Shown here piece after piece: positions 1 through 59,800 of a DNA stretch of 64,000 nucleotides. The stretch is from the NCBI GenBank assembly GCA_963727275.1, contig CAVSFK010000004.1:69076-133075 (forward strand). Direction: 5' to 3'. Positions within the stretch are counted from its first letter, which is position 1. Each line of letters begins with the position of its first letter. The position numbers were made by a program, and so were the translations under genes. Below the pieces are notes generated by a model, which did no database searches, was not told the DNA's origin, and saw only the letters and a list, made by a program, of their open reading frames with translations. The stretch is from an uncultured Acidobacteriota bacterium. Lineage in GTDB: Bacteria; Acidobacteriota; Thermoanaerobaculia; Thermoanaerobaculales; Thermoanaerobaculaceae.

Positions 1-126
<126 letters not shown>

Positions 127-196
127 CGGGCGGAATACCCGGCCCGCGGCCGGGAGTTTTTGACGGTAGGGGCAGGTGTGCCCCTGGAGGGAACCG

Positions 197-523
197 ATGC
201 TCACCATGACGGACAAGGCGGTTGAGAAGGTCCGCTTCTACGCCGGCGAGATGGCGGAGGCGAAGGGCAAGGAGCTGCGCATCTTCGTCCAGGGGGGCGG
301 CTGCTCCGGATTCCAGTACGGTTTCACGTTCGACGAGGCGCAGGACGGCGACACGGTGGTGGAGTCGGGCGGGGTGAAGGTCCTCGTCGACCCGATGTCG
401 GCGCAGTACCTGTCGGGCGCGACCGTGGACTTCGTCGAGGATCTGCGCGGCTCCGGCTTCGTGGTCGAAAACCCGAACGCGGTGCGCTCGTGCGGGTGCG
501 GGCACTCGTTCTCCGTCGACTGA
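197..523 (+). CDS. erpA: HesB/IscA/ErpA-family iron-sulfur cluster insertion protein
   Basis: [12 protein letters not shown]...[11 protein letters not shown]...[16 protein letters not shown] has the three conserved Cys of A-type carriers. GGAGGG lies upstream of the ATG at 197. The ORF-track start at 176 is probably too early. Confidence 0.85.
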
Positions 524-527
524 GGCG

Positions 528-1100
528 GTGTACGGCGTGAGCACTCGCCCGCTCGACGGCCGCCACCGCGCGATCGTGAGGCTCGGACATCCGGCGCTGC
601 GGCAGCGCGCGGACGAGGTGCCGGCGGAGCGTTTCGGCACCCGGTTCCTGCACGATCTCGGGCGCGACCTCCTGCGCACGATGTTCGAGGACAGCGGCGT
701 CGGGCTCGCGGCGCCCCAGATCGGGGTTTCGCTGCGGGTCTTCGCGTACTACGTACCCGGCGAGGGGGACAAGGACGAGGTCCCGCCCACCGTTCTGGTC
801 AATCCCGTCCTCACGCTGCTCGGCGAGGCGAACGAGGCGGGGTGGGAGGGGTGCCTCTCGATCCCCGGCTTGCGCGGCCTGGTCGCGCGGCACGCCGCGG
901 TGAAGGTCGCGGCGTTCGACACCGGCGGCTCGGCGCTCGCTTTCCAGGCCGAGGGGTTCCACGCCCGCGTCATCCAGCACGAGCACGATCACCTCGACGG
1001 GGTCGTCTTCCTCGATCGCATGTCGGGCATGGGGTCGCTCATGTTCGAGGAGGAGTGGGAGCACTATGCGCCCGACCGCGCAACCCCCGTCGAAGCCTGA
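528..1100 (+). CDS. def: peptide deformylase
   Basis: Motifs GVGLAAPQIG, EGCLSIPG and HEHDHLDG (metal ligands). GTG start. Confidence 0.9.
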   Translation: MYGVSTRPLDGRHRAIVRLGHPALRQRADEVPAERFGTRFLHDLGRDLLRTMFEDSGVGLAAPQIGVSLRVFAYYVPGEGDKDEVPPTVLVNPVLTLLGEANEAGWEGCLSIPGLRGLVARHAAVKVAAFDTGGSALAFQAEGFHARVIQHEHDHLDGVVFLDRMSGMGSLMFEEEWEHYAPDRATPVEA

Positions 1101-1113
1101 GTCCGGGCGCCGC

Positions 1114-1311
1114 CGATAGCGGACCATCTGCGTTGTCGGACTTCGGCGGCTCGGCTCCTCACGTACCCTCCGGGTACGCTCCGGGCCGGCCGCCTCGTCC
1201 TCCTAGCATCTGGCCCACTCTCGGCGGCGCGGCTACGCGCCGTGCTGCCGGGCCCTGCCTCTGATGCTGTGTCGTTTCGCTTTCGGACCCCGGACCCCGG
1301 ACCCCGGTCCT
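1114..1311 (+). repeat. ~200-nt intergenic repeat family, copy 1 (hairpin CGTACCC-TCC-GGGTACG at 1162-1178; 3' tail of CGGACCC heptamers at 1284-1311)
   Basis: Long stretches are identical to the reverse complement of 59574-59762 (cgatagcggaccatctgcgttgt, cctagcatctggcccactctcg, gcgcggctac.cgccgtgctgc) and to 43116-43324. It fills the convergent gap between def and the PDZ gene. Confidence 0.7.
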
Positions 1312-1315
1312 TCCA

Positions 1316-2419
1316 CTACAGCCCGGTCGGCGGGGGCGGCGGTGCCGGGGGCGCGGGCGGGGCCGCCGGATGCGCGGGCATCGCCGGTGCCGCACGGCGC
1401 GGCGCGTGCGGAGGCATGGCGCCGTGCCTGGCGGGCGCCTGCGCGGTGAGCGTCAGCTTCTCGTGCTTGCGCAGCACCAGCAACGCCACGGTTTCGCCCG
1501 GCTCGTACGACCGCAGGATGCGCATCGCCTGCGCGGGGGTCGCCGGCGAGCGGTCCCCGATCTTGAGGATCACGTCGCCGCCCCTGAGCTTGAACGCCTC
1601 GTCCTTGGGCGTTCGCACGACCAGCAGCCCCTCGCTGGTGCCGAAGTAGTCGCCGAGCTCCGGCGTGAGGCTCACCAGTTCCATGCTGCGCCACGAGCGG
1701 CCGCCCATCACGACGTCCATGTCGATGTCGGGCATGTCGGGCATCTCGATGTTGATGTCGGACATGTCGGGGATCTCAATGGTCTGATCGCCCCCCTCGC
1801 CGTCGGGGACCGTGAGCACCCGCACCCTCGGGCCCGTCGGCCGGCGCGCGGTGATCGCCACCGTGCTCGTGGCATCGCCGCGCCGGTACTCGAGGGTGAC
1901 CGGATCGCCGTCCTTCAACGAGCCCGCCAGCTCGATCAGGCGGGCCGTGGGGAGCGACTCGTCCTCGTCCGCTTCCACGTTGCCCGTGGTGAGCGGGTGG
2001 CCGTTGTACTTCGTGATGATGTCGCCGGCGCGCAGCCCCGCTTCCTCGGCCGGGCTTCCGGGGGTCAGCGCCTCGATGACGGCGCCGATCGCGTCCGTGC
2101 TCTGGTTCGTCTCGTGGCGCAGGACGAGGCCCAGCCGGGCGTGGTCGCGGTAGACGACGACCTTGCGGTCGAGCTTCATCCTCTTCACGTTCACCTCGGC
2201 GAGCTTGCGGGCCGCCTCCCGCATTGCCTGCTCGGCTTCGCGCATCTTCTGCTCGGCCTTGTGCATCTCCATCTCCGCGTCGTGCCGCTTCGCCTCGGCT
2301 TCGTGTCGTTGGCGGTCGGTCTCCTGCGGGTTGGGCGTCGGCGCCGCGGTTTGCGCGAACATCGGTGTGGCCGCCATCGCCAGCACGGCCAGCAGACTCA
2401 GGAACGATTGCCCTCTCAT
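1316..2419 (-). CDS. secreted PDZ-domain protein (signal peptide, His/Glu/Lys-rich coiled coil, two PDZ-like domains, Pro/Ala tail)
   Basis: Start MRGQSFLSLLAVLAMAATPMFAQ is preceded by GGAAGGGAGAA. PDZ-like segments are GSPAEEAGLRAGDIITKYNG and LRGGDVILKIGDRS. The part of the 545-aa ORF upstream of this start is rejected as read-through. Confidence 0.75.
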   Translation of the reverse strand: MRGQSFLSLLAVLAMAATPMFAQTAAPTPNPQETDRQRHEAEAKRHDAEMEMHKAEQKMREAEQAMREAARKLAEVNVKRMKLDRKVVVYRDHARLGLVLRHETNQSTDAIGAVIEALTPGSPAEEAGLRAGDIITKYNGHPLTTGNVEADEDESLPTARLIELAGSLKDGDPVTLEYRRGDATSTVAITARRPTGPRVRVLTVPDGEGGDQTIEIPDMSDINIEMPDMPDIDMDVVMGGRSWRSMELVSLTPELGDYFGTSEGLLVVRTPKDEAFKLRGGDVILKIGDRSPATPAQAMRILRSYEPGETVALLVLRKHEKLTLTAQAPARHGAMPPHAPRRAAPAMPAHPAAPPAPPAPPPPPTGL

Positions 2420-2442
2420 GGTGTTTCTCCCTTCCTCACCGG

Positions 2443-3030
2443 CTACAGCCCGACGTACGTGGTGCCGGAGGTCTCGACGCCGACCAGCGCGTCCAGCAGC
2501 TGCACCCGCCGCTGCCAGAGACCGACGATCTCCCGGGACGGGTAACGATCGGGGCGCGCGCGGCTCAGCTCCGCGTCGATCATCGCGATGCGGTCCTCGA
2601 GCTGCACGACCGTCCCGGCGGTGCGGCCGTTCATCACGCGCCCATCGCGCTCCGAGGCCCGCAGCGCCTGCTCGAGTCGCTGCGACTCCGCGACGAGCGT
2701 CTGGGCCTGGCGGGCCAGCCGCGCCTCGGCGAGCACCTCCAGCGCGCCGCGCACGCCGATCGCGAGGGTGAACGCCGCGGCGAGGCTCGCCGCCGCCCAC
2801 CCGAACCGGATCCACCCGCGGCGCTGGCGCCGGGCCGCGGCGCGGGCCCGCACGGTCGGCCACAGGTCTCGCGGCGGCGCCTGCGCGGGCAACGCCGAGA
2901 GCGACGCGCGCACTGCACGGAGGCGTTCCACCTCGGCGCTGCACGCCGGACATGCGGCGACGTGGGCTTCCGCCTCGGCGGCCGCCTCGCCGTCCCGCAC
3001 CGCGAGCAGCTCTTCAAGGCTCAGGTGCAT
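2443..3030 (-). CDS. anti-sigma factor (zf-HC2 type, single transmembrane segment)
   Basis: MHLSLEELLAVRDGE...HVAACPACSAEVERL has the H-x3-C-x2-C motif, followed by the TM helix WIRFGWAAASLAAAFTLAIGV. Its start overlaps the sigma-factor stop by 10 nt. Confidence 0.8.
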   Translation of the reverse strand: MHLSLEELLAVRDGEAAAEAEAHVAACPACSAEVERLRAVRASLSALPAQAPPRDLWPTVRARAAARRQRRGWIRFGWAAASLAAAFTLAIGVRGALEVLAEARLARQAQTLVAESQRLEQALRASERDGRVMNGRTAGTVVQLEDRIAMIDAELSRARPDRYPSREIVGLWQRRVQLLDALVGVETSGTTYVGL

Positions 3031-3617
3031 GGTCCCTCCCGAACCCCGGGCGCGAGCAGCTCCCGCAGACGAGCGTGCGCCCGCGCCAGTTGTGATTTGG
3101 AGAAGCTCGGGGTCTTGCCGGCCAGCCCGGCGATCTCCTCGTGGCTGTACCCCTCGACGTCGTGGAGCCAGATGACGGCGCGAGCGGCGTCGGAGAGCCG
3201 CGCGAGGGCGGTCTCGACGTCGACCCTCGCGGACGCCGCGGCGCCCGCCGCCGAGGCGTCCGCCGAATCGCTCGGCCGAGCGTTCAGCCGCTCCTCGGAA
3301 AGCTCCTCCTCGAGGCCCCGGGCGCCGGACTGTCGGAGCTTCATCAGGGCCTTGCTCGCCGCGACCTTGCGTATCCAGCCCGCCAACGAACCGTCCCCGC
3401 GGAAGCGGCCGATGCTGCGCACGACCTCGAGGAAGGTCTCTTGGAGGACGTCCTCCGCATCGTGCGCCGAGCGCGTCAGGCGGCGGGCAAGGGTGTAGAC
3501 GGGGGTCTCGAAACGGCGGAAGAGCTGTTCGAGCGCCGCCTCCTCGCCGGATCTGGCCCGCGCGACCAGCAGGTCGTCGATCGGCACGGCAAACGAGGTG
3601 CGCGTCGGCGTCTCCAT
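3021..3617 (-). CDS. ECF-family RNA polymerase sigma-70 factor
   Basis: Region 2 (DAEDVLQETFLEV, GWIRKVA) and region 4 (VIWLHDVEGYSHEEIAGLAGKTPSFSKSQLARAHARL). Start is placed at METPTR; the ORF is open up to 3698, so the start is uncertain. Confidence 0.8.
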   Translation of the reverse strand: METPTRTSFAVPIDDLLVARARSGEEAALEQLFRRFETPVYTLARRLTRSAHDAEDVLQETFLEVVRSIGRFRGDGSLAGWIRKVAASKALMKLRQSGARGLEEELSEERLNARPSDSADASAAGAAASARVDVETALARLSDAARAVIWLHDVEGYSHEEIAGLAGKTPSFSKSQLARAHARLRELLAPGVREGPCT

Positions 3618-3827
3618 GGTGTCCCCGCGATGCAGTACGGTAACGGGCTCGACGAAGTTTATCCGCGCCGCCCGGGCCATCGGCAACTCGCTGGTCACAC
3701 CCGTCTAGATGCGCCGGGCGGCCGGACCGTCGCACGAGGGCGTTTGACCGCACCGCGCGGGGCGTGCATCATCGCCGGCACGCCTCCCGCGGAGGAGCCT
3801 CCGAGCGCCGGGGAGCAAGGAGACGGA

Positions 3828-5207
3828 ATGGACGCCAGCGCCGTGCCGCAGCCCCTCGCCCGCTCGTACCGTTGGATCGTGCTCGCGATCATGAGCCTGA
3901 TCTGCTTCGCCCAGTACTACATCTACGACTCGATCACCCCGCTCGGCACGCTCATCAAGGAACAGCTCGGGTTCTCCGGCGCCGAGTACGGCCTGCTCTT
4001 CTCGTTCTACGCCGTGGCCAACGTCTTCCTTCTGATGTTGTTGTTCGCCGGCGTGCTGGTGGACTGGCTCGGCCTCAAGGTGTCGGGGATCCTCTACGGG
4101 TTCTTGTGCCTCCTGGGCGCCGCCCTGACGGCGCTGGGGGCGTGGAAGGGGTTGCCGGGGCTGCTCGGCGGCGGGTACGGGTGGCTGCACACGGCGTTCC
4201 TGCCGTCGTGGAGCCCGGAGCTAAAGATCATGTTGCTGGGACGCATGATCTACGGCGTCGGGGCCGAGGCGATCCTGGTCGTCAACAACAAGGTCCTGGC
4301 TCGCTGGTTCAAGGGCAAAGAGTTGGCATTTGCGTACGGGATGAACCTGACGATCATGCGGCTCGGAACGTTCCTCGCGCTCAACGTTCAGGCCCCGGCG
4401 GCGGGGTGGTTCGGACTCGGCGGGTCGCTCTGGTTCGCCGCGGCAATCATGGCCGGGGGTTTCGCCACGTACTTCATCTACCTCGGCATGGAGCGGGCCG
4501 CCCGGGGAAGGATGGGGGCGCCGGGGGTGACCGCCGGCGGCGGGGTGGCGCCGGAGGAGAAGTTCGCCCTCAAGGAAGCGTTCTCGTTCGACGCCTCGTT
4601 CTGGTTCATCACCCTGTTGTGCGTGACCTTCTACTCGGCGGTGTTTCCGTTCCAGTCGTACGCCCCGGACATCCTGGTGCAGAAGTTCGGCTACACGGTC
4701 AACGCGGCCGGGCATTACACCTCGGCGCTCATCTTCGGCACGATGATCTTCACGCCGTTGCTCGGGCTTTACGTGGACAAGCGCGGGAAGCGCGCGACGC
4801 TCATGATTCTAGGGGCGGCTCTGCTGGTGCCGTGTCACCTCTTGCTCGGGTACACGCACTTTCCGCCGGTGGTGCCGATCTTCTTCGTCGGCATCGCGCT
4901 CTCGCTCGTGCCGGCCGCGCTGTGGGCGGCGATCCCGATGATGGTGCCGGAGTCGCGCCTGGGCACCGCGTTCGGCGTCGTGGGCTACGTGCAGAACGTC
5001 GGACTGATGCTCTTTCCCTACCTCGCCGGGAAGATCGCCGACGCGCACACCACCATGGTCGGCGGCCAGCCGGTGGTCGATTACACCTCCACGATGGTGA
5101 TGTTCGCGGCGCTGGGCGTGGTCGGCTTTGTGTTCTCGCTTCTTCTCAAGGCGACCGACGCGCGCCGCAAGACCGGCATCAGCATCGAGAAGGTGCTGCT
5201 CAAGTAG
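3828..5207 (+). CDS. MFS transporter
   Basis: About 12 predicted hydrophobic helices. An MFS-like loop GRMIYGVGAEA follows TM2. ATG at 3828 is preceded by GGAGACGG. The upstream part of the 688-aa ORF is antisense read-through of the sigma gene. Confidence 0.75.
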   Translation: MDASAVPQPLARSYRWIVLAIMSLICFAQYYIYDSITPLGTLIKEQLGFSGAEYGLLFSFYAVANVFLLMLLFAGVLVDWLGLKVSGILYGFLCLLGAALTALGAWKGLPGLLGGGYGWLHTAFLPSWSPELKIMLLGRMIYGVGAEAILVVNNKVLARWFKGKELAFAYGMNLTIMRLGTFLALNVQAPAAGWFGLGGSLWFAAAIMAGGFATYFIYLGMERAARGRMGAPGVTAGGGVAPEEKFALKEAFSFDASFWFITLLCVTFYSAVFPFQSYAPDILVQKFGYTVNAAGHYTSALIFGTMIFTPLLGLYVDKRGKRATLMILGAALLVPCHLLLGYTHFPPVVPIFFVGIALSLVPAALWAAIPMMVPESRLGTAFGVVGYVQNVGLMLFPYLAGKIADAHTTMVGGQPVVDYTSTMVMFAALGVVGFVFSLLLKATDARRKTGISIEKVLLK

Positions 5208-5467
5208 GCGAGAACCGCTCGGGCGGCCGGCGCCGACCCGGCGCGCCGCTCGCTCCGCCCTCCCGATGCAACCCTCGACGTTCCGTGGGCATCTAAGGGG
5301 GTGGCGTGTCCGAACGCGGTGAGCCGCAACGACCGGGTGCGGCGGGCGTTGCCGTGCAAAAGAAGGCGCCTGGCCGGTCGTCAGAACCCGCTTCGTCGTC
5401 CGGACGTAGGTAGGGGTACGAGCCCGGCCTCTTCGTGGTGGCGGTGACGCCGGGCGTGGGGGCGCGC

Positions 5468-6565
5468 ATGAAGACGTGGTTGAAGGTCGTGGTCCCGGTG
5501 GTGGTCGTCGGAGCGGTCGGGTTCGGCGCCGTGCAGGCGACGACCGGCAAGGCCGCCAAGGGCGGTTTCACGCTCGTCAAGGTCGAGCGCGGGACGATCA
5601 CCGACAAGGCGCTCGCCACCGGCCAGATCGTCCCCGAGCAGGAGATCCAGGTGAAGTCGCAGATCTCCGGGATCGTCAAGGAGTGCTTCGCCGACGTCGG
5701 GGACCGGGTGAGCGCCGGGCAGCCGCTGTTCGCGATCATCCCGGACCCGACGCCACTCGAGCTCAACGAGGTCGAGCGCGGGGTCCAGCTCTCCGAGGTG
5801 GGCTACGCCAAGGCGGCCGCCGACTTCGAGCGCAACGGCGCGCTCTGGAAGGACGGGATCCTCTCGAAGGAGCTGTACGACGCCGCCAAGCAGGCGTTCG
5901 ACCAGGCCCGCATCCAGCTCGACCTGGCGCGCGAGCGCTTCGCCCTCACCAAGGAGGGGAAGATCCAGCGTGCCAAGGGCAACGTGGACTCCGTGATCCG
6001 CGCTCCGGCGTCGGGGACCGTGCTCATCCGCCAGGTCAACCCCGGCGACCCGGTGGTGCCGCTCACCTCGTACCAGGCCGGCACCCCGTTGATGACCATG
6101 GCCGACATGGGGACCCTGATGTTCAAGGGGACCGTGGACGAGATCGACGTCGGCAAGCTCCGCGAGGGCCTGCTCGTGCGCGTCAAGATCGGCGCCCTCC
6201 CGGACGCCAAGGTGACCGGCCGGCTGACGCGCATCGCGCCCAAGGCCACCGAGAAGGAAGGGACGACGCTGTTCGACGTCGAGGCGACCATCGAGAGCGC
6301 TGAAGGGGTCACGCTGCGCGCCGGATACTCGGCGAACGCCGACGTCGTCATCCAGGAAAAGCCCGGCGTGCTGCTGCTCCCCGAGCGCCTGGTGAGCTTC
6401 GACAAGGACAAGGCGTTCGTCGAGGTGCCGGGGGGCAAGCCGGATACGCCGCCGGCCAAGCGCGAGATCAAGACCGGCCTCTCCGACGGGCTCAAGCTCG
6501 AGGTCGTCGCAGGGCTCGCCGAGGGCGACGAGGTGGTGCAGCGTCCCCCGAAGGAAATCAAGTGA
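5468..6565 (+). CDS. efflux transporter periplasmic adaptor subunit (HlyD/MacA family)
   Basis: N-terminal TM anchor MKTWLKVVVPVVVVGAVGF, a lipoyl/coiled-coil/beta-barrel layout (QIVPEQEIQVKSQISGIV...AGQPLFAI), and context immediately upstream of FtsX permeases. Confidence 0.85.
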   Translation: MKTWLKVVVPVVVVGAVGFGAVQATTGKAAKGGFTLVKVERGTITDKALATGQIVPEQEIQVKSQISGIVKECFADVGDRVSAGQPLFAIIPDPTPLELNEVERGVQLSEVGYAKAAADFERNGALWKDGILSKELYDAAKQAFDQARIQLDLARERFALTKEGKIQRAKGNVDSVIRAPASGTVLIRQVNPGDPVVPLTSYQAGTPLMTMADMGTLMFKGTVDEIDVGKLREGLLVRVKIGALPDAKVTGRLTRIAPKATEKEGTTLFDVEATIESAEGVTLRAGYSANADVVIQEKPGVLLLPERLVSFDKDKAFVEVPGGKPDTPPAKREIKTGLSDGLKLEVVAGLAEGDEVVQRPPKEIK

Positions 6566-6576
6566 CTGATCGGCGC

Positions 6577-6894
6577 GGGAGCGCCGATCAGTCATCCCGA
6601 GCGCAGCGAGGGATCCCGTGGGAGCGCGAGGCCGCGGGTGCGCGCGGGAGCGCCGATCAGTCATCCCGAGCGCAGCGAGGGATCCCGTGGGAGCGCGAGG
6701 CCGCGGGTGCGCGCGGGAGCGCCGATCAGTCATCCCGAGCGCAGCGAGGGATCCCGTGGGAGCGCGAGGCCGCGGGTGCGCGCGGGAGCGCCGATCAGTC
6801 ATCCCGAGCGCAGCGAGGGATCCCGTGGGAGCGCGAGGCCGCGGGTGCGCGCGGGAGCGCCGATCAGTCATCCCGAGCGCAGCGAGGGATCCCC
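6577..6894. repeat. perfect 69-bp direct tandem repeat, about 4.6 copies, in the adaptor-permease intergenic space
   Basis: The unit gggagcgccgatcagtcatcccgagcgcagcgagggatcccgtgggagcgcgaggccgcgggtgcgcgc starts at 6577, 6646, 6715, 6784 and 6853, with the last copy truncated. All three forward frames give 23-aa periodic peptides. A hairpin tgactgatcggcgc-ggga-gcgccgatcagtca at 6563-6594 overlaps the macA-like stop codon. Confidence 0.95.
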
Positions 6895-6957
6895 CGGCGT
6901 TGCGAGAGCCACCGGGCGGCCAGCCGCGGCGAGCGAGTCACCGGGAAAGCCTGAGTC

Positions 6958-8187
6958 GTGGGCTGGAAGAACTACCTCCGCCAGTTCCTGCGCGACCTCA
7001 AGAGCCAGAAGCTGCGCGCCGCGCTGACGCTGTTCGGGCTCGTGTGGGGGACGACGGCCGTCACCCTGCTGCTCGCGTTCGGGGAGGGGCTCGAGGAGCG
7101 CCTGATCAAGAATATCCGCGGCCTCGGCGAGAACATCGTGATCTGCTGGCCCTCGCAGACCTCCAAGCCGTGGGAGGGCCTGCCGCGCAACCGCAAGATC
7201 GTGGTCAAGGACGACGACATCGCGGCGCTCAAGCGCGAGGTGCCCGGACTGACCGCGATCTCCGGCGAGTACAGCGCCGGCACCAAGAAGTTCAAGGTCG
7301 GGCGCAAGGTGCTCGTGCCGGGGATGACCGGCGCCAACCCGGTGTTCTCGGCGATGCGCAACCTCATCCCGCAGGCGGGCGGACGGTACGTCGACGACCT
7401 CGACATGGACGAGCGCCGCCGCGTCGTCTTCCTCGGCGACGGTCTCAAGCAGGACCTCTTCGGGGACGCCGAGGCGGTGGGGAAGTACGTCAACGTCAAC
7501 GGCGTGCCGTTCCTCGTCGTCGGGGTGATGACGCCGAAGTCGCAGGACTCGTCGTACCAGGGGCGCGACAAGGACCGAGCGTCGATCCCGGCCACCACGT
7601 TCCGGGCGATGTACGGCCAGCAGGAGTACGGCAACTTCGTCTTCCAGGTCGCGGATTCCTCCAAGGTCGAGACGGCCAAGGACAAGGTGATCGCCACCCT
7701 GGCCAAGATCCACCGCTTCGATCCGTCGGACGCCGAGGCGGTTCGGATGTGGGACGTCACCGAGAACGAGAAGTTCATGCGGACGTTCATGCTCGGGTTT
7801 CGCCTGTTCCTCGGCGTGATGGGCGTGCTCACGCTCGTGGTGGGCGGGATAGGCGTCTCGAACATCATGAACGTCGTGGTCGAGGAGCGCACCAAGGAGA
7901 TCGGCGTCAAGATGGCGCTCGGCGCCCGTCAGCGCGCGATCACCACCCAGTTCATCTTCGAGACGCTCCTGCTGACGGTGGCCGGCGGCGCCGTCGGGTT
8001 CGCGCTCTCGTGGGTGATCTGTGCCGTGTTCCCGGCGAGCCTCGACAACTACGTCGGCACCCCTGTGATCTCGCTGCAGGTCGGCGCCGTGACCACCCTC
8101 GTCCTCGGCGCCATCGGCTTCCTGGCCGGGTACTTCCCGGCGCGCGCCGCGGCGCGTCTCAACCCGGTCGAGGCGTTGAGGCTCTAG
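6958..8187 (+). CDS. ABC transporter permease, MacB/FtsX family (1 of 2)
   Basis: N-terminal TM helix (LRAALTLFGLVWGTTAVTLLLAFGEG), a large periplasmic domain, and three C-terminal FtsX TM helices with EIGVKMALGA and AGYFPARAAARL. Confidence 0.9.
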   Translation: MGWKNYLRQFLRDLKSQKLRAALTLFGLVWGTTAVTLLLAFGEGLEERLIKNIRGLGENIVICWPSQTSKPWEGLPRNRKIVVKDDDIAALKREVPGLTAISGEYSAGTKKFKVGRKVLVPGMTGANPVFSAMRNLIPQAGGRYVDDLDMDERRRVVFLGDGLKQDLFGDAEAVGKYVNVNGVPFLVVGVMTPKSQDSSYQGRDKDRASIPATTFRAMYGQQEYGNFVFQVADSSKVETAKDKVIATLAKIHRFDPSDAEAVRMWDVTENEKFMRTFMLGFRLFLGVMGVLTLVVGGIGVSNIMNVVVEERTKEIGVKMALGARQRAITTQFIFETLLLTVAGGAVGFALSWVICAVFPASLDNYVGTPVISLQVGAVTTLVLGAIGFLAGYFPARAAARLNPVEALRL

Positions 8188-8189
8188 CG

Positions 8190-9446
8190 ATGCGCGCGCT
8201 CGCCCTCATCGTCCGCCTGTTCCGCGGCGCCGCCAAGATCGCCAAGAAGAGGATGATCCTCACGGTCACCGCAATCGCCTGGGGGACCGTAGCGATCATC
8301 CTGCTGCTGTCGTTCGGCGAAGGGCTCCGGCGCAGCCTCGACAAGGGCCGCAAGGGGCTGGGCGAGAGCATCGTCATCATCTGGATGGGCGAGACGGAGA
8401 AGGCGTTCGCCGGGCTGCCCGCGGGGCGGCCGATCCGTCTGATCCCCGACGACGTGGACCTCGTGCTGCGCGGCGTGCCGGAGATCGCCTCCGCCTCCGG
8501 CGAGATGCACAACTGGAACGTGCAGCTCGTGGCCGGCCGCACCGCCCTCAACAAGCGCGTGGTCGGGGTCGAGCCCGCCTACGGCGAGCTGCGGACGAGC
8601 TACCCGCAGCCGGGCGGGCGCTACATCGACGAGCTGGACCAGCGGCTCAAGCGCCGTGTCGTGTTCCTCGGCGACCAGCTCGCCAAGGACCTGTTCGGCC
8701 CCGCGGACCCCGTCGGCCGGACGCTGCTCATCGCCGACACCCCGTTCACGGTCATCGGGGTCCTGCAGAAGAAGCGGCAGATGGGGATGTACGGCGGCCC
8801 CGACGCCGACCGCGCCTCGATCCCGCTCTCCACGTTCGAGGCGATGTTCGGGCGCCGGTTCCTGACCAACCTCGTGTACAAGCCGGCGACCGACGCCCTC
8901 GCTCCGGTCGCCAAGCGCCACCTCATGGAGGTGCTCGGCGCCAAGTACCGCTTCGACCCCGATGACACCCGCGCGCTCTACTTCTGGGACACGATCGCCG
9001 ACTCCAAGATGTTCACCACGATGATGGTCGGCATCGAGCTGTTCCTCGGGATGATCGGCGCCCTCACGCTCATCATCGGCGGCGTCGGGGTGGCCAACAT
9101 CATGTTCGCGGCGGTCACCCATCGGACCCGAGAGATCGGCGTGCAGATGGCCCTCGGGGCGCGCCGGATCTACATCACGGGCTCGATTGTCCTGGAGTCG
9201 CTCGCGCTCACGTTCGCCGGCGGCGTCGCCGGCATCGCGATCGGGGTCACGATCGTTCAGGTCCTGGCGGCGGTGCAGCAGCACGCCAAGAGCGAGGCGA
9301 TGGAGTTTCTCGGGGCGCCGACGATCTCGATCCCGATCGCCGTGACCACGGTCGCGCTGCTCGGGCTGATCGGGCTGCTGGCGGGGTACTTCCCGGCGCG
9401 CCGCGCGGTCTCGGTGCAGCCCGCCGAGGCGCTGCGGTTCGAGTGA
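8190..9446 (+). CDS. ABC transporter permease, MacB/FtsX family (2 of 2)
   Basis: Paralogous architecture (ILTVTAIAWGTVAIILLLSFGEG ... EIGVQMALGA ... AGYFPARRAVSV). The ATG lies 2 nt after the preceding stop. Confidence 0.9.
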   Translation: MRALALIVRLFRGAAKIAKKRMILTVTAIAWGTVAIILLLSFGEGLRRSLDKGRKGLGESIVIIWMGETEKAFAGLPAGRPIRLIPDDVDLVLRGVPEIASASGEMHNWNVQLVAGRTALNKRVVGVEPAYGELRTSYPQPGGRYIDELDQRLKRRVVFLGDQLAKDLFGPADPVGRTLLIADTPFTVIGVLQKKRQMGMYGGPDADRASIPLSTFEAMFGRRFLTNLVYKPATDALAPVAKRHLMEVLGAKYRFDPDDTRALYFWDTIADSKMFTTMMVGIELFLGMIGALTLIIGGVGVANIMFAAVTHRTREIGVQMALGARRIYITGSIVLESLALTFAGGVAGIAIGVTIVQVLAAVQQHAKSEAMEFLGAPTISIPIAVTTVALLGLIGLLAGYFPARRAVSVQPAEALRFE

Positions 9447-9457
9447 AGGAGGACGCG

Positions 9458-10186
9458 ATGTTCGGCAACGGGAACAACCGCAGGGAACGGGCCGACCCGG
9501 ACGGGCCGATCATCGCGCTCGCCGGGGTCCGCAAGGTCTACGACACGGGCGCGATCCAGGTCGAGGCGCTGCGCCGGGTCGACCTCGACGTGCGGCGGAA
9601 CGAGTTCCTCGCGATCGTGGGGCCTTCCGGCTCCGGCAAGTCCACGCTCATGAACATCATCGGCTGCCTGGACACGGCGACCGACGGCTCCTACCGCCTG
9701 CGCGGCGAGGAGGTGGCCGGGATGTCGATCGACCACCTGGCCGACATCCGCAACCGCCGCATCGGCTTCGTGTTCCAAAACTTCAACCTGCTGCCGCAGC
9801 TGTCGGCGTTCGAGAACGTCGAGATGCCGCTGCTGTTCAAGGGGACCCCGAGCCGCGAGCGCCGCGAGCGGGTCGAGGCGCTGTTCGCGCAGGTCGGGCT
9901 CACCGACCGCATGCAGCACCGGCCGGTCGAGCTCTCGGGCGGCCAGATGCAGCGCGTCGCGATCGCCCGCGCCCTCGCGTGCGAGCCCGACATCATCCTC
10001 GCCGACGAGCCGACCGGCAACCTCGACTCCGCGTCCGGGAAGGACATCATCGGGATGTTCGAGGAGCTGTGGGCGAAGGGGCACACGCTCGTGCTGATCA
10101 CGCACGACGCAGCCATCGCGCGGCGCACGCACAGGGTCGTGCGCGTCCAGGACGGCACGGTCGTCACCGACGAGCGCGCGGCGTGA
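9458..10186 (+). CDS. ABC transporter ATP-binding protein (MacB/LolD-like)
   Basis: Walker [11 protein letters not shown]-loop, signature [14 protein letters not shown], Walker [13 protein letters not shown]-loop ITHD. AAGGAGG lies upstream of the ATG at 9458. Confidence 0.92.
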
Positions 10187-10192
10187 GGGCGG

Positions 10193-10720
10193 CTATTGCG
10201 GGTTGACGCCGACGTACGAGCCGGCGGCGTTGACCGTGTACCAGATCTCATCGGGCTTGCTGGCGAAGCAGCGGCCGAAGTACTCCTCCGCCTTGGCGCG
10301 GTCGCCGTGGAGGTTGTACCAGGCGCCGACCTCGACGAGGTTCCCCTCGTCCTTGGGATCGAGCGCGATCGCCTTCTCGAAGGCGTCCTTGGCCCGATCC
10401 CACTCCTTGGCCTCGAGGTACACGCGGCCCAGGCGCAGCCAGTCGTCCTTCTTGACCTTGCCCGCGAAGACCCGGTCGAAGATCGCCTGGCCCTGGGTCT
10501 TGTCGCCCATGAGGTAATAGACCCGGCCGACCCCGATGTTCTCCCAGCTCCCCTTGCCCGCCTGCTTGAGCGCCACGGTCAGCAGGCCGAGCGCGGCGTC
10601 CTTCGGGCTCTGCCCCGCGTACATCATCTTCTCCACCTTGCTTCCGGCCGAGCCCGCGACGCCCACGACCACGCCGAGGACGAACGTCGCCAACGCCAGC
10701 ACCACGTGCTTCCGCTTCAT
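10193..10720 (-). CDS. secreted TPR-repeat protein
   Basis: Signal/anchor [26 protein letters not shown]-like repeats ([45 protein letters not shown]). Confidence 0.7.
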
Positions 10721-10824
10721 GTTGGCCTCCAGGTGGCCGAACAATAGACCGTGTCTCGCCGGCAGACAAGGGAGCGCCCCCGGGGTTCGGGGGCGCTCGA
10801 CCGATGCGGTCGCCTGCCCCCGCC

Positions 10825-11160
10825 TCAAGGCCGCTGCCGCGCTCCGTTGTGCTTCGCCCTGTAGATGTTGCGCGAGAGCCCGTTCTGCTGGCGGTTGACG
10901 AGGGCGCGATCCCGGCGGGTCAGGGCGCCGCCGTTGACCTGCCGCATTCCGCGGATCTCGCGGTTCAACCCCGCCTCGCGACGCTCCAGGCGCGTCGCCT
11001 CGCCGGCGGTGAGCCGGCCGCTCGCGATCCCCTGGGCGATGCGGTCCTGCTGGTTGTCCTTGCGTTGCCGGATCGTGGAATCGGCGCGAGCCGCGGCCGC
11101 CGTCAGGCTTGCCGCCAGCGCGACCGCCCCCCCTACGCATAGAACCCTGAGTCCGATCAC
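10825..11160 (-). CDS. small secreted hypothetical protein (basic, Gln/Arg-rich)
   Basis: A signal peptide ending AAARADS, followed by RQRKDNQQDRIAQGIASGRLTAGEATRLERRE...NRQQNGLSRNIYRAKHN. No function assignable. Confidence 0.55.
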   Translation of the reverse strand: MIGLRVLCVGGAVALAASLTAAAARADSTIRQRKDNQQDRIAQGIASGRLTAGEATRLERREAGLNREIRGMRQVNGGALTRRDRALVNRQQNGLSRNIYRAKHNGARQRP

Positions 11161-11359
11161 GGGTGCCTCCCTTCACGCCCACAGACGCGCGGCGCGGCCG
11201 GCCGTTGACGGCGCGGGGCGGCCAAGGGGTCGCCGTGTGACCTCGCCCACACGACGCCTGCCGGGAGATCGCGGCGTTCACCGACGATGACCGTGGCGGC
11301 TGCACACCGGGGGCGCCGAGCGCCGGCGTTCGGGGTTACCGTGCGCGCGGAGGTGGCGC

Positions 11360-11782
11360 GTGAGGTCCCTGACCCGGTACCTGACCATGGACGTCCCGGC
11401 GCGGATGGAGTTCGTCAACATCACGGGCGACGTGGAGGCGTCGGTCCGCGAGAGCGGCGTGCAGGAGGGTCTGTGTCTGGTCAACGCCATGCACATCACC
11501 GCCTCGGTGTTCATCAACGACGACGAGCCGGGCCTCCACGAGGACTACAAGCGGTGGCTGGAGCAGCTCGCGCCGTACGACCCGTCGCCGCAGCGCTACC
11601 GGCACAACCGCACCGGAGAGGACAACGGCGATGCCCACCACAAGCGGCAGGTGATGGGGCGCGAGGTGGTCGTCGCCGTCACCGGTGGCAAGCTCGACTT
11701 CGGCCCCTGGGAGCGCATCTTCTACGGGGAGTTCGACGGCCGGCGAGCCAAGCGCGTGTTGATCAAGATCATCGGCGAGTGA
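11360..11782 (+). CDS. yjbQ: YjbQ/UPF0047 family protein (secondary thiamine-phosphate synthase-like)
   Basis: Strong family motifs: [75 protein letters not shown]. Confidence 0.85.
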
Positions 11783-11900
11783 GGGCCGCCGGAGCCGGGC
11801 CGGCGGCGGGGGCGGGAAGCCGGACGACATCGCGACCGGGATCACCCTCGGGCACGGCCGGGGCGCCGTCACGATCGCCGCGCGCTCGAACGACTCGGCG

Positions 11901-12728
11901 TCACGCGGGGCGCGTTCCGTGGCCGGGTTCCCGGCGAGAGAAGCGCCCTCGATTCACGAGCCGCGCCAGCAGGCGGGGCGTATACCGGGCGAGGGCCACG
12001 GCCACCTTCCCGTGCGCGGTCACGATCAGCTCCCGCCGGCGCCCCGCGAGCGCGCCGGCGATCCGGCGGGCCGCCTTCTCGGCGGGCATGACGAGCCAGG
12101 CCGGCGCAGGGTCGCGGGCGCCGGGGTGGAGAACGCCTCGATTGTCGACCTGGCGGAACTCGCTCGCGACGAAACCCGGCGTGATCAGCACCACGCCGAT
12201 GCCTCGGGGCGCCAGCTCGCCGCGCAACGCCGCGGCCAGCGCGCGTATCGCGGCCTTGCTCATCGCGTACGCCGAGGCGCCGGGCGCCGCGACGTATCCC
12301 GCCACGCTGCCGATGATCGCCAGGACGCCGCGGGTGCGCGTCAGCTCGTCGAGCGCGGCGCGGGCGGTCAGCAGGACGCCGAAGACGTTGGTCTCGAACT
12401 GGCGCCGGTAGTCGGCGAGCGCCAGCTCGGCAAACCTGCCCGCGACCCCGAAACCGGCGTTGGCGACCACGACGTCGAGGCCGCCGAACTCGGCGGTCGA
12501 GGCGGCCACGGCGCGTTCGAGATCGCCGTCCCGGGTGACGTCGCAAACGAAGGGGAAGGCGCGGCCGCCGCCGCTGCGGATCTCGTCGGCCAGAGCGTCG
12601 AGTCGCTCGGCGCGCCTCGCGAGCAGCGCCACGGACGCGCCCCGGCTCGCGCACTCGCGGGCCAGCGCAGCCCCGATGCCCGAGGAGGCCCCGGTGATGA
12701 GCACGGTCTTGCCGGTGAGCCGTTTCAC
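11901..12728 (-). CDS. SDR-family oxidoreductase
   Basis: TGASSGIG cofactor motif, NAG, and catalytic S...YAMSK. GTG start at VKRLTGKTVLITG; the longer ORF extension is rejected. Confidence 0.85.
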   Translation of the reverse strand: MKRLTGKTVLITGASSGIGAALARECASRGASVALLARRAERLDALADEIRSGGGRAFPFVCDVTRDGDLERAVAASTAEFGGLDVVVANAGFGVAGRFAELALADYRRQFETNVFGVLLTARAALDELTRTRGVLAIIGSVAGYVAAPGASAYAMSKAAIRALAAALRGELAPRGIGVVLITPGFVASEFRQVDNRGVLHPGARDPAPAWLVMPAEKAARRIAGALAGRRRELIVTAHGKVAVALARYTPRLLARLVNRGRFSRREPGHGTRPA

Positions 12729-12750
12729 CCTGGCGGTCCGGACGCGGGCT

Positions 12751-14217: not shown

Positions 14218-14288
14218 GGGGCCCTCCGCGCGCCATGGTAGCCCACGCGGGCTCGAGCGGGGCGCTCGGGCGCCGTTGTCGGGCCCGC

Positions 14289-16035: not shown

Positions 16036-16101
16036 GAGTCCTCCTCGATGGCGATTGAGGCCGAGACGTAGGCTCCAATCACTTAATCGCCATTGAGTAA
16101 T

Positions 16102-43115: not shown

Positions 43116-43324
43116 GGCGCCGCCGGCGTCGGACCTCTCGCGGCGTTGCGCATCGCGGCCTCGCATCCTCACGTACCCTCCGGGTACGCTCCGGTGCGGG
43201 CCGCTCGCGCGCCTTGCGATAGGCCCAACGGCGGCGGCGCGGCTACCCGCCCCAAGCTGCGAGGCCCTGCCTTTGGTGTTGTGGTGCTGTCGTTCTCGGA
43301 CCACCGGCCACTGGCCACCGGCCA
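43116..43324 (+). repeat. ~200-nt intergenic repeat family, copy 2 (hairpin at 43172-43188; CCGGCCA-type heptamer tail at 43297-43324)
   Basis: Shares gggcgccgcc..., catcctcacgtaccctccgggtacgctccgg, ggcggcgcggctac and ggccctgcct with copy 1. It lies between the acyl-CoA dehydrogenase stop and the tmRNA 3' end. Confidence 0.65.
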
Positions 43325-43370
43325 CGCCTCTTCCTCGACGGAGGCCGTCCGGGCATGACAGGGTCCGAGA

Positions 43371-59555: not shown

Positions 59556-59573
59556 ACCCATCCCGGAGGAACC

Positions 59574-59762
59574 GGGTCCTGGGTCCTGGCCGATACCAGG
59601 ACGACCAGAGCAGGAAGAAGCAGGCCGCCGCAGCACGGCGTGTAGCCGCGCGGTCGAGAGTGGGCCAGATGCTAGGCGCGCGAGGCTGCCGCACCGGAGC
59701 ATAGCCGGAGGCTATGTGAGGATGCGACGGCCGAGCGCAACAACGCAGATGGTCCGCTATCG
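59574..59762 (-). repeat. ~200-nt intergenic repeat family, copy 3 (inverted; hairpin CATAGCC-GGA-GGCTATG at 59700-59716; GGGTCCT heptamers at 59574-59587)
   Basis: The reverse complement aligns with 1114-1311 over nearly its whole length. It lies in the convergent gap between the PHP gene and cysK. Confidence 0.7.
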
Positions 59763-59800
59763 ACCGCGCAGATGCCTCGACGCCGGCGGCGCCAGCGGGC

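What the first reader, a model, noticed from the sequence alone, without database searches (positions are those of the whole stretch)
1114..1311. Conserved ~200-nt intergenic element family (3 copies) at convergent gene ends, each ending in a heptamer array
The gaps after def (1114-1311), after the acyl-CoA dehydrogenase (43116-43324) and, inverted, after the PHP gene (59574-59762) share long identical blocks. These include cgatagcggaccatctgcgttgt, ctcac-hairpin-gctccgg, cctagcatctggcccactctcg and gcgcggctacgcgccgtgctgc.

Each copy starts within a few nt of a stop codon and fills a 3'-3' intergenic region. Each ends with 2-4 tandem heptamers (CGGACCC, CCGGCCA, AGGACCC).

The element has no coding capacity. 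Its translations appear only as tails of spurious ORFs (..PHVPSGYAP.., ..PSIWPTL..). It could be a REP/MITE-like element, a 3'-UTR-derived sRNA family or a terminator/insulator module.
Basis: seen in the sequence. Interest (0 to 1): 0.65.

Follow-up and report, generated by a model that had tools for sequence, protein, structure and literature searches.

The report
Repeated giant hairpin at gene ends
The three look-alike gaps are copies of a previously undescribed, hundreds-per-genome repeat of Thermoanaerobaculaceae (Acidobacteriota): a strongly conserved ~155-base hairpin that sits directly after the end of a gene, most likely serving as a spreadable end-of-transcript hairpin, much like the REP/BIME repeats of E. 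coli.

Summary
The window has exactly three copies, at 1106-1258 (+), 43116-43270 (+) and 59620-59770 (-). They score 146-154 bits with a covariance model; the next best match scores 21 bits.

The conserved unit is about 155 nt:
- a ~125-nt imperfect hairpin with an invariant apical motif, CCUCAC-stem-UCC-stem-GCUCCGG
- a GGCTAC box
- GCCCTGCC

More than 100 further copies were found in at least 13 Thermoanaerobaculaceae/Acidobacteriota MAG assemblies, about one per 20 kb. Full-length relatives also occur in three other lineages.

Pairing is under selection: 98.7% of cells are paired and 20 of 41 pairs show compensatory changes. Orthologous copies are more conserved than the neighbouring coding sequence.

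The element is polar. In 64 of 77 copies its 5' end lies 0-36 nt (median about 2) after a co-directional stop codon; one distant copy starts 1 nt after a tRNA. An orthologous def-PDZ gap without the element carries an ordinary terminator-like hairpin instead.

The tail, including the heptamer arrays, is a variable mosaic rather than part of the conserved core.

Nothing matched in Rfam, plasmids, phages, E. coli genomes or the literature, and no transposase was found.

Best reading: a new REP/BIME-like mosaic repeat acting as a 3'-end hairpin or insulator. How it spreads is unknown.

The parts
1106..1258 (+). Copy A, conserved core. Outer stem GCGCCGCCG 1107-1115 pairs with CGGCGGCGC 1222-1230. 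Apical motif 1157-1184. GGCTAC box 1231-1236. GCCCTGCC 1252-1259.
   Evidence: CM R1 151.6 bits, E 1e-23. nhmmer 1107-1257. Fold z-score -5.1. Starts 5 nt after the def stop at 1098-1100.
1259..1311 (+). Copy A tail: U/G-rich leader TGTCGTTTCGCTTT, then (CGGACCC)x3.4 at 1284-1307. It ends 4 nt before the stop of the convergent PDZ gene (1316).
   Evidence: TRF; sequence. The tail is poorly conserved between orthologous copies in other genomes. No such array is seen in the element-free orthologous def-PDZ gaps.
43116..43270 (+). Copy B, conserved core (alternative block 'haplotype' GGCGTC.../...AACGGC). Apical motif 43167-43194.
   Evidence: CM 154.2 bits. Fold with a 125-nt hairpin. Starts 2 nt after the acyl-CoA dehydrogenase TAA at 43111-43113.
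43271..43325 (+). Copy B tail: TGTCGTTCTC leader, then heptamers CGGACCA/CCGGCCA/CTGGCCA at 43301-43325. The tmRNA gene (43371-43723, minus strand) follows.
   Evidence: TRF; tmRNA by Rfam and ARAGORN. The same leader-plus-array module occurs in other MAGs.
59620..59770 (-). Copy C, conserved core. Apical motif 59694-59721 has two compensatory pairs relative to A and B (GTACCC/GGGTAC becomes ATAGCC/GGCTAT). The outer stem is also compensated (GCGCGGTCG/CGACCGCGC).
   Evidence: CM 146.5 bits; alignment A1/A2; fold.
59771..59797 (-). Copy C 5' extension: a partial duplicate of the 5' arm (GCGCCGCCGGCGTCG...). It lies between the stop of the PALP/cysteine-synthase-like gene (59801-59803) and the core.
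   Evidence: Sequence. Similar 12-13-nt duplications of the 5' terminus occur in L053, L059, L061 and L074.
59567..59619 (-). Copy C tail: pyrimidine-rich stretch, then (AGGACCC)x2.3 at 59574-59589. It ends about 12 nt from the stop of the plus-strand ORF 58500-59555.
   Evidence: TRF; sequence; ORFs.

Best explanation
**What it is (shown).** The three gaps hold copies of a high-copy, mosaic extragenic repeat family of Thermoanaerobaculaceae.
- Its conserved unit is a ~155-nt element: a ~55-bp imperfect hairpin with fixed internal loops and a fixed apical motif, followed by GGCTAC...GCCCTGCC.
- The structure is under purifying selection.
- The element is placed with its 5' foot directly after the end of a co-directional gene (stop codon, or a tRNA 3' end in one distant relative).
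- It is usually followed by optional tail modules: small hairpins and C-rich heptamer arrays.

**How it most likely works (inferred).**
- The element is transcribed as the last part of the upstream transcription unit. In convergent gaps it is also reached by the opposing transcript.
- The very stable hairpin acts as a 3'-end structure. It would pause or stop RNA polymerase, block 3' exonucleases, and insulate neighbouring and convergent units.
- In this way it would take the place of an ordinary terminator hairpin in a genome where U-tract terminators are not enriched.

**How it spread (unknown).** It spread as a non-autonomous repeat, in the manner of REP/BIME/ERIC elements. The mobilising activity is not identified. 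One lead is a single-strand DNA (HUH/RAYT-like) route: the complementary strand carries GTAG next to the hairpin foot and conserved G.T wobbles.
For: **Family size and spread.** More than 106 loci carry the apical pattern, nearly all from Acidobacteriota/Thermoanaerobaculaceae MAGs. nhmmer finds 128 hits in 0.85 Mb.

**Structure under selection.**
- 98.7% of cells are paired against 87.3% in shuffles. 20 of 41 pairs carry double changes. 0 of 500 shuffles reach the observed values, and slid controls give 28-45%.
- Base-pair states reassort between helices while staying complementary: 46 haplotypes among 72 sequences.

**Constraint.** In most orthologous pairs the core is 0.93-0.99 identical. 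The upstream coding sequence is mostly 0.82-0.95 identical, and the downstream 150 nt 0.47-0.84.

**Polarity.**
- In 64 of 77 copies the 5' end is 0-36 nt (median about 2) after a co-directional stop.
- In tandem gene pairs, sense orientation outnumbers antisense 27 to 9.
- The distance on the 3' side is variable, 58-400 nt.
- The CM scores the given strand at about 150 bits and the reverse strand at about 35 bits.

**Distant relatives keep the placement.** L029 starts 1 nt after a co-directional tRNA. L044 overlaps the stop of a HIT-family gene.

**Functional replacement.** The syntenic def-PDZ gap in relatives with 78% identical def (L189-L192) has no element. It has an 11-bp GC hairpin followed by TCTTCTTT. 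Other genomes have other GC hairpins or REP-like clusters at the same place.

**Background.**
- Canonical hairpin-plus-U-tract sites are not enriched in window 1-20000: 5 found against 6.1 expected.
- Promoter-like -10 boxes often lie between the element and the next co-directional gene.
Against: - There are no transcript data, so transcription, 3' ends and termination are all inferred.
- No U-tract follows the hairpin on either strand.
- The strand antisense to the upstream gene folds better as RNA: mean -88.3 against -78.7 kcal/mol, better in 69 of 72 copies and in 4 of 4 distant relatives. The reason is that conserved C.A/A.C mismatches on the sense strand are G.U on the other strand. This fits a single-strand DNA substrate or an antisense RNA at least as well as a sense 3'-UTR hairpin.
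- A plain terminator role does not explain the invariant internal loops and apical motif kept across phyla.
- 13 of 77 copies do not follow a co-directional gene end.
- No transposase was found, so 'mobile' rests on copy number and empty orthologous sites only.
Confidence: 0.5

Rival explanations
1. A selfish REP/REPIN-like element that lives as single-stranded DNA. The minus strand (GTAG, 2 nt, then a hairpin with conserved G.T wobbles) would be the substrate of a single-copy HUH/Y1 (RAYT-like) enzyme that copies it around the genome. Its position at gene ends would simply be where insertions are tolerated.
For: - GTAG (59 of 72 copies; GCAG in 13) lies 2 nt 5' of the hairpin foot on the minus strand.
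- Three near-invariant G.U/G.T pairs on that strand make it the better folder in 69 of 72 copies and in 4 of 4 distant copies.
- There are hundreds of copies per genome. A few 'master' sequence types are shared within and between genomes, including 98-100% identical non-orthologous copies.
- Different subtypes occupy the same orthologous site, and empty orthologous sites exist.
- REP families tagged by GTAG and tyrosine transposases in Acidobacteria are documented (PMC3733652; PMC6006769).
Against: - No HUH/Y1 ORF was found in about 1.25 Mb of loci, either by motif or by tblastn with recalled RayT/IS200 sequences. This is a small sample for a single-copy gene.
- The hairpin is 3-5 times longer than known REPs. 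It carries the tag on one side only, so it is not a symmetric REPIN.
- The tight abutment of one end to gene ends is not a described REP property.
- The distant relatives lack GTAG at that place.
Confidence: 0.25
2. A dedicated structured RNA (cis-acting 3'-UTR domain, or an antisense/independent RNA) whose fixed loops bind a specific protein or RNA partner. Multiplication would be secondary to that function.
For: - The apex (CUCA/CUCC 4x4 loop, U.G, 7-bp covarying stem) and the internal loops (AUCU..GUUG / CCUAG..AUCU) are conserved in Pseudomonadota, Bdellovibrionota and an unclassified MAG. The outer stems there are unrelated in sequence but still complementary; CM scores are 33-54 bits over the full length.
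- Optional extra hairpins sit at fixed positions, like expansion segments.
- The core is more conserved than the neighbouring coding sequence.
- The orientation bias is strong.
Against: - There is no Rfam match, even at E up to 10.
- There is no partner and no expression evidence.
- Hundreds of copies behind unrelated housekeeping genes is unusual for a specific regulator.
- The two strands give conflicting wobble signals.
Confidence: 0.17
3. Integron attC-type recombination sites (as with the 123-126-bp VCR repeats), or remnants of an insertion sequence's ends.
For: Imperfect palindromes of about 125 nt, directly after stop codons, in the same orientation as the preceding gene, with conserved mismatches.
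Against: - The flanking genes are housekeeping genes (def, acyl-CoA dehydrogenase, PALP enzyme, glmS, UvrD-like and others) in convergent or ordinary operon contexts, not cassette arrays.
- There is no RYYYAAC/GTTRRRY core at the ends.
- No integrase or transposase lies next to the copies inspected.
- There is no similarity to plasmids, phages or E. coli genomes.
Confidence: 0.02

Closest known systems
REP / BIME elements of enterobacteria and pseudomonads (with REPIN-RAYT systems)
   Same: - Hundreds of extragenic copies, GC-rich imperfect palindromes and mosaic combinations of modules.
- Preference for gene 3' ends and convergent gaps.
- Compensatory evolution of the stem and long vertical persistence of 'master' sequences.
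- A GTAG tetranucleotide beside the hairpin on one strand.
   Different: - The hairpin is about 125 nt, against 20-40 nt for REPs.
- The tag is on one side only, so the element is not a symmetric REP doublet.
- It is strictly polar, with one foot abutting the upstream gene end.
- The apical and internal loops are conserved across phyla.
- There is no sequence similarity to E. coli genomes, and no RAYT was found.
ERIC/IRU (127-bp) and Correia/NEMIS-type palindromic repeats
   Same: - Imperfect palindromes of about 125-160 nt that are co-transcribed with genes.
- Variants with extra segments inserted at fixed internal positions.
- Proposed effects on mRNA stability and termination (my own knowledge of the ERIC and Correia literature).
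   Different: - Those elements occur in both orientations, and their most conserved parts are the termini.
- Correia elements duplicate TA.
- Here the apex is the most conserved part, I saw no target duplication, and the orientation is biased.
Conserved non-canonical terminator repeats such as TRIT of Mycobacterium tuberculosis (own knowledge)
   Same: A repeated, conserved hairpin without a proper U-tract, lying between convergent genes in a high-GC genome and thought to mark transcript ends.
   Different: TRIT is much shorter and species-restricted. No covarying multi-helix architecture or cross-phylum relatives have been described for it.
Heptamer tandem repeats near gene ends (GGGNATC of Xanthomonas/Nostoc, PMC4692102; cyanobacterial STRR, own knowledge)
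   Same: The tail arrays are tandem heptamers in non-coding DNA close to stop codons or gene starts. They are variable in number (2-13 units), and some are GGGG-containing on one strand: (CGGACCM)n, (CCCGARC)n, and (GGGGTCC)n on the other strand.
   Different: - The unit sequences differ.
- Here the arrays are usually chained behind a specific hairpin element with a conserved leader (TGTCGTTCTC).
- Several units (GTGGCCG, TGGTCCG) cannot form G-quadruplexes.

Membership tests
REP / REPIN-RAYT | High-copy extragenic GC-rich palindrome | tested here: met
   More than 100 copies at about 1 per 20 kb, all intergenic.
REP / REPIN-RAYT | Short (20-40 nt) hairpin with an unpaired GTAG at its 5' foot; in REPINs, two inverted REPs | tested here: not met
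   GTAG is present on the minus strand in 59 of 72 copies, 2 nt from the foot. But the hairpin is about 125 nt, tagged on one side only, and the arms are not REP units.
REP / REPIN-RAYT | Cognate Y1/HUH transposase (RAYT) gene flanked by the repeats | tested here: inconclusive
   None was found in about 1.25 Mb of loci. Whole genomes could not be scanned.
MITE (IS-derived) | Conserved terminal inverted repeats matching an IS, plus a target-site duplication | tested here: inconclusive
   The termini (GCGCCGCCG/CGGCGGCGC) are inverted repeats. However, conservation peaks at the apex and loops, I saw no direct repeat at the boundaries I read (not searched for systematically), and there was no IS match in plasmids, phages or E. 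coli.
Integron attC / VCR | R''/R' core sites (RYYYAAC...GTTRRRY), cassette arrays, intI nearby | tested here: not met
   No core sites. The neighbours are housekeeping genes in convergent or tandem contexts. The window's genes were not all annotated, so an intI was not strictly excluded.
Intrinsic (Rho-independent) terminator | GC-rich hairpin directly followed by a U-tract | tested here: not met
   After the hairpin comes GGCTACRCGCC on the plus strand and coding sequence on the minus strand. The scan reports none at the elements.
Any Rfam 15 family | Covariance-model score at or above the gathering threshold | tested here: not met
   Only tmRNA and tRNA were found. At E up to 10 only chance-level hits appeared, at most 15 bits.
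Heptamer SSR / STRR-type arrays (tail only) | Tandem 7-nt units in non-coding DNA close to gene ends, variable in number | tested here: met
   Window arrays at 1284-1307, 43301-43325 and 59574-59589. Arrays also occur without the hairpin at 45235-45261, 45361-45426 and 47540-47563. Period-7 stretches follow the core in 53 of 70 copies elsewhere; this count includes the recurrent hairpin motif GCGGCCTGCGGCCGGCG.

The most novel reading that the evidence does not exclude
The ~155-nt element would be a new class of structured nucleic-acid module conserved across at least four bacterial lineages. Its fixed apex and internal loops would be read by a dedicated, still unknown protein: either a nuclease/recombinase that places copies precisely at the 3' boundary of genes and tRNAs, or an RNA-binding factor that defines transcript ends. 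It would have expanded to hundreds of copies in Thermoanaerobaculaceae. This would be more than another REP family: it would be a distinct gene-end-targeting system.
Probability: 0.2. Interest if true: 0.8.

Novelty: new variant of a known kind. Interest (0 to 1): 0.58.

Why it matters
**For transcription biology.** If the hairpin marks transcript ends, it gives a handle on how a poorly studied, uncultured-dominated, high-GC lineage terminates and insulates transcription without classical U-tract terminators. It would also show a terminator-like function spreading as a repeat.

**For mobile-element and RNA biology.** Three features are unusual for bacterial repeats:
- the strict abutment to gene and tRNA ends
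- loops conserved across phyla
- conserved wobble pairs on one strand

Together they point to a specific partner protein, which could be a new single-strand DNA or RNA recognition system.

**Practical uses.**
- The family is a ready-made marker for Thermoanaerobaculaceae in metagenomes.
- It is a frequent cause of contig breaks. Several MAG contigs end inside it, for example L017, L021, L022, L037 and L090.
- It is a source of spurious ORF calls.

Tried and rejected
**Searches that found nothing.**
- Rfam at gathering threshold and at E up to 10: nothing but tmRNA and tRNA.
- Viral contigs, plasmids, phages and E. coli genomes: no match.
- Literature search for exact sequence strings and for Acidobacteria/Thermoanaerobaculia repeats: no description found.

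**Transposase hunt.**
- An HUH-Y1 motif regex and tblastn with RayT/IS200 sequences recalled from memory were run over all loci. The only hit was weak (E 0.3, L093) and lies in an ECF-sigma region.

**Ideas tested and dropped.**
- Heptamers belonging to the opposing gene's 3' end: rejected. Period-7 stretches follow the core in 23 of 29 tandem contexts as well as in 30 of 41 convergent ones. They are absent from the element-free orthologous def-PDZ gaps.
- Tail as a C-rich rut site for Rho: not supported. C and G are balanced over the whole downstream region.
- Stop codon as part of the element: rejected. The spacing varies from -2 to +36 nt.

**Lookups that gave no usable comparison.**
- An exact-protein lookup of the window's PALP gene is not on record.
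- The empty/filled comparison at the acyl-CoA dehydrogenase site gave absence in 84-89% identical orthologues, but without synteny, so the boundaries could not be read.
Full report

Yes.
- BLASTN within the window gives A vs C 79% identity over 207 nt (E 8e-43) and A vs B 74% over 210 nt (E 4e-27). There is no fourth copy.
- The apical pattern CCTCAC-N4-CCTCCGG-N4-GCTCCGG occurs three times in the window and never in 100 dinucleotide shuffles.
- A covariance model built later (R1) finds exactly three matches: 43116-43270 (+) at 154 bits, 1106-1258 (+) at 152 bits and 59620-59770 (-) at 147 bits. The reverse strands of the same sites score 32-42 bits. The best unrelated site scores 20.6 bits.
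- The window is 71.5% G+C.

The flanking genes were checked with Pfam, Rfam and ARAGORN:
- Copy A lies between peptide deformylase (+) and a PDZ protein (-).
- Copy B lies between an acyl-CoA dehydrogenase (+) and a tmRNA gene (-, 43371-43723).
- Copy C lies behind a PALP/cysteine-synthase-like gene on the minus strand.

TRF confirms heptamer arrays at 1284-1307, 43301-43325 and 59574-59589.

**2. Anatomy**

Each copy folds into one long imperfect hairpin of about 125 nt (z-scores -3.3 to -5.1). Reading 5' to 3' in the element's own orientation, the parts are:
- G plus the outer stem GCGCCGCCG.
- Helices separated by fixed internal loops (AUCU..GUUG on the 5' side, CCUAG..AUCU on the 3' side).
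- A C-G pair and an invariant U.G pair.
- A 4x4 internal loop, CUCA/CUCC.
- A 7-bp stem with a UCC loop.
- The return arm, ending in CGGCGGCGC.
- After the hairpin: GGCTAC(A/G)CGCC, about 12 variable nt, then GCCCTGCC.

That is about 155 nt in all.

**3. The family**

- Nearly all hits come from MAGs labelled Acidobacteriota, Thermoanaerobaculaceae or Thermoanaerobaculales. The 80 loci listed come from at least 13 assemblies, with many hits per assembly.
- One 133-kb contig carries at least six copies, and the window carries three in 64 kb. That is roughly one per 20 kb.
- The window's own deformylase has its named homologues in Thermoanaerobaculaceae.
- nhmmer with a 72-sequence alignment (A2) finds 128 hits in 0.85 Mb, 84 of them full length.
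- Four of the 106 loci are chance hits whose N4 positions do not pair. Three others are real relatives from other lineages: L029 (Pseudomonadota MAG, 60% GC, two tandem copies), L030 (unclassified, 50% GC) and L044 (Bdellovibrionota MAG, 45% GC).
- The CM matches these three over its full length at 53.7, 49.9 and 32.7 bits. Their outer stems are AT-rich and unrelated in sequence but still complementary. The apex and the CGUYGUUG / CCUAG..CUGG loops are conserved.

The element was absent from every other collection searched:
- viral contigs, plasmids, phages and E. coli genomes
- 80 metagenome loci encoding acyl-CoA dehydrogenase relatives

Rfam 15 has no matching family, even at E up to 10. 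A full-text search for the sequence strings and for repeats in this lineage found no description.

**4. The structure is selected**

On A2, RNAalifold predicts 41 pairs, 20 of which show compensatory double changes. Many are near 50:50, for example GC 35 / AU 33. The formal count gives:

| Measure | Observed | Control |
|---|---|---|
| Cells paired | 98.7% | 87.3% in shuffles (0 of 500 reach the observed value) |
| Cells with changes on both sides | 340 | 120 in shuffles |
| Cells paired, partner slid by 1-3 columns | n/a | 28-45% |

The pair states are not just two hitch-hiking subfamilies. Most pairs of base-pair positions show all four combinations, with 46 haplotypes among 72 sequences, while each pair stays complementary.

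Copy C in the window itself carries two compensatory pairs in the apical stem, and a compensated outer stem.

**5. Constraint and history**

Many copies sit at orthologous positions in different species; flanks are 80-93% identical.
- For most such pairs the core is 0.93-0.99 identical. That is higher than the 300 nt of upstream coding sequence (mostly 0.82-0.95) and far higher than the 150 nt downstream (0.47-0.84).
- In a few orthologous sites the two species carry different subtypes of the element (0.68-0.80). This indicates replacement, conversion or re-insertion.
- Within one genome, non-orthologous copies range from 61% to 99% identical. Identical cores occur at non-orthologous sites in different species.

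Empty sites exist.
- The acyl-CoA dehydrogenase orthologues at 84-89% identity lack the element.
- More tellingly, the syntenic Fe-S/def/PDZ/anti-sigma/sigma locus was recovered from relatives, with these gap contents:

| Locus | def identity to window | Content of the def-PDZ gap |
|---|---|---|
| L189-L192 | 78% | 81 nt: an 11-bp GC hairpin followed by TCTTCTTT, a terminator-like site |
| L193 (from an element-rich genome) | 78% | a small GC hairpin |
| L194 | 76% | a cluster of a different REP-like hairpin |
| L188 | 98% | the element, but with an extra internal module that the window's copy A lacks |

So the element is an insertion that occupies the place where relatives have other 3'-end hairpins. 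Its internal modules come and go on short time scales.

**6. Polarity**

I called genes with a codon-usage model trained on the loci and classed the 77 full copies that have genes on both sides:

| Context | Copies |
|---|---|
| Convergent | 37 |
| Tandem, element in sense | 27 |
| Tandem, element antisense | 9 |
| Divergent | 4 |

The median is about 2.
- Several of the longer spacings are partial duplications of the element's own first 12-13 nt. Copy C is one of these.
- The next gene on the 3' side is 58-400 nt away in nearly all cases.
- The distant relatives behave the same way. The first L029 copy begins 1 nt after a co-directional tRNA. The L044 copy overlaps the stop codon of a HIT-family gene.
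- The stop codon is not part of the element, because the spacing varies.

**7. The tail and the heptamers**

Downstream of GCCCTGCC the sequence is lineage-specific and modular. In many MAGs the order is:
- a small hairpin (CCTGCCTTCG...CGAGGGAGG)
- a strong GC hairpin (GGCTGCGCGGCC-TGC-GGCCGGCGCAGCC)
- an array with a conserved leader, TGTCGTTCTC-(GGACCAC)n
- a second array, (CCCGARC)n

Other points:
- One locus repeats the 3' modules three times (L089).
- Period-7 stretches (heptamer arrays, but also the recurrent hairpin motif GCGGCCTGCGGCCGGCG) follow the core in 30 of 41 convergent and 23 of 29 tandem contexts. This rules out my interim idea that they belong to the opposing gene.
- They are missing from the element-free def-PDZ gaps.
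- The arrays are nonetheless separable from the hairpin. The window has arrays without it: inverted NCAGGGC arrays at 45235-45261 and 45361-45426, and a CTGACCC array at 47540-47563. Unrelated metagenome loci have inverted (CGGAATT)n arrays.
- Tandem heptamers close to stop codons are a described phenomenon in Xanthomonas and Nostoc (PMC4692102).

The whole is therefore best described as a BIME-like mosaic, whose one conserved and selected component is the 155-nt hairpin unit.

**8. Which strand?**

The evidence conflicts.
- Position and the CM define a clear orientation, sense to the upstream gene.
- On that strand there is one invariant U.G pair, and G.U cells outnumber A.C cells 29 to 14.
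- But two conserved mismatches on that strand (C.A in 71 of 72; A.C in 66 of 72, with G-C in the other 6) become G.U pairs on the complementary strand. A further G.U there extends the apical stem.
- As a result the complementary strand folds better as RNA: mean -88.3 against -78.7 kcal/mol, better in 69 of 72 copies. The same holds in all four distant copies.
- On that same strand GTAG (59 of 72; GCAG in 13) lies 2 nt 5' of the hairpin foot, as in GTAG-tagged REPs (PMC3733652).

This is the main support for a single-strand DNA (RAYT-like) life cycle. It is also why I do not put the 3'-UTR hairpin model above 0.5. No Y1/HUH gene was found in the 1.25 Mb at hand. That is a weak negative for a single-copy gene.

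**9. Mechanism, and what is shown versus inferred**

Shown:
- a large family
- a selected structure
- constraint on the core
- polarity, and abutment to gene and tRNA ends
- occupation of sites that hold other 3'-end hairpins in relatives
- no enrichment of canonical U-tract terminators in the part of the window scanned (1-20000; 5 found against 6.1 expected)
- promoter-like -10 hexamers between the element and the next co-directional gene in a fair share of cases (weak evidence)

Inferred:
- The element is transcribed at the end of the upstream unit.
- Its hairpin pauses or terminates polymerase, or protects the 3' end. In convergent gaps it would do so in both directions.

Unknown:
- how copies are made
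- what reads the fixed loops

A C-rich 'rut' role for the tail is not supported by composition.

**10. Comparison, novelty and verdict**

It works like REP/BIME, ERIC or TRIT-type repeats, but it fails the defining tests of each.
- It is not a short GTAG-REP or a symmetric REPIN.
- It is not a terminus-conserved MITE with a target duplication.
- It is not an attC site, not a U-tract terminator and not an Rfam family.

I class it as a new variant of a known kind: an undescribed mosaic palindromic repeat family with an unusually long, multi-helix, cross-phylum conserved core and strict gene-end polarity.

Interest is moderate to high for people working on bacterial repeats, transcription termination in high-GC uncultured lineages, or structured-RNA discovery. 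Transcript data, or a partner protein, would decide how far it goes beyond 'another REP-like family'.

Noticed in passing
window 6573-6893: A 69-bp unit repeated 4.7 times with 100% identity. Each unit contains a 14-bp hairpin (TGACTGATCGGCGC...GCGCCGATCAGTCA). The array lies between a HlyD-family gene (5435-6565) and a MacB/FtsX-type permease gene (6958-8187).
   Followed up: partly
window 45226-45426: The convergent gap between a TPR protein gene and aspartate decarboxylase (panD) has no hairpin element. It has two inverted heptamer arrays, (TCAGGGC)x3.9 and (CTGCGCC)x9.4, flanking about 100 nt of AT-richer sequence. On each strand the G-rich array is the one next to that strand's gene stop.
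   Followed up: partly
window 47527-47590: Another heptamer module, TTGTCGTG-(CTGACCC)x3.4-CTGTCGTCTTCTTC, sits in a tandem minus-strand gene gap without the hairpin element.
   Followed up: no
window 43371-43723 (-): tmRNA gene with tag peptide ANTELALAA. Its 3' end faces copy B across about 45 nt plus the heptamer array.
   Followed up: yes
L015, L024, L026, L047, L071 (right arm); L064 (variant): Some copies carry a nested hairpin of about 130 nt, bounded by CCGGGTAGTCACACTTTG...CAAAGTGTGATACCCGG. It is always at the position of ATCTGGCCCA in the right arm. It could be a second nested repeat or an optional domain.
   Followed up: partly
L026, L087, L024, L004, L007, L067, L058; L188:1179-1302: An optional ~100-nt module in the left arm (..CCTGGCGGGGGGTCCCGCG...GACCCCCCG.GCCCCCC..GAGCCGCGTCTCGCC). 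L188, whose def protein is 98% identical to the window's, has an extra internal module with the same 3' junction (..GCCCGCGTCTCGCC) where the window's copy A has none. This implies recent gain or loss of an internal module.
   Followed up: partly
L111 ~3700-4000; L113 ~3700-4050: Metagenome relatives at 65-68% GC have inverted arrays of a different heptamer, (CGGAATT)n ... (AATTCCG)n, flanking about 170 nt after the acyl-CoA dehydrogenase gene.
   Followed up: no
L194:2565-2849: The orthologous def-PDZ gap in another Thermoanaerobaculaceae-type genome holds a cluster of a different small REP-like hairpin (GCCCCGCC-N4-GGCGGGGC, several copies).
   Followed up: no
L089:~2100-2470: Tandem triplication of the 3' modules of the element: CGGCGGCGCGGCTRCACGCC, small hairpin, GC hairpin, then (CGGACCA)n. 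This shows the tail modules multiply on their own.
   Followed up: no
L003, L005, L019, L053, L068, L084, L088 (5' flank of the element): In about 13 of 77 copies the 5' end lies 8-44 nt (one case 191 nt) from the start of a divergently transcribed gene. In several of these a -10-like hexamer for that gene lies 8-20 nt from the element boundary. The -35 region would then fall in or at the element edge.
   Followed up: no
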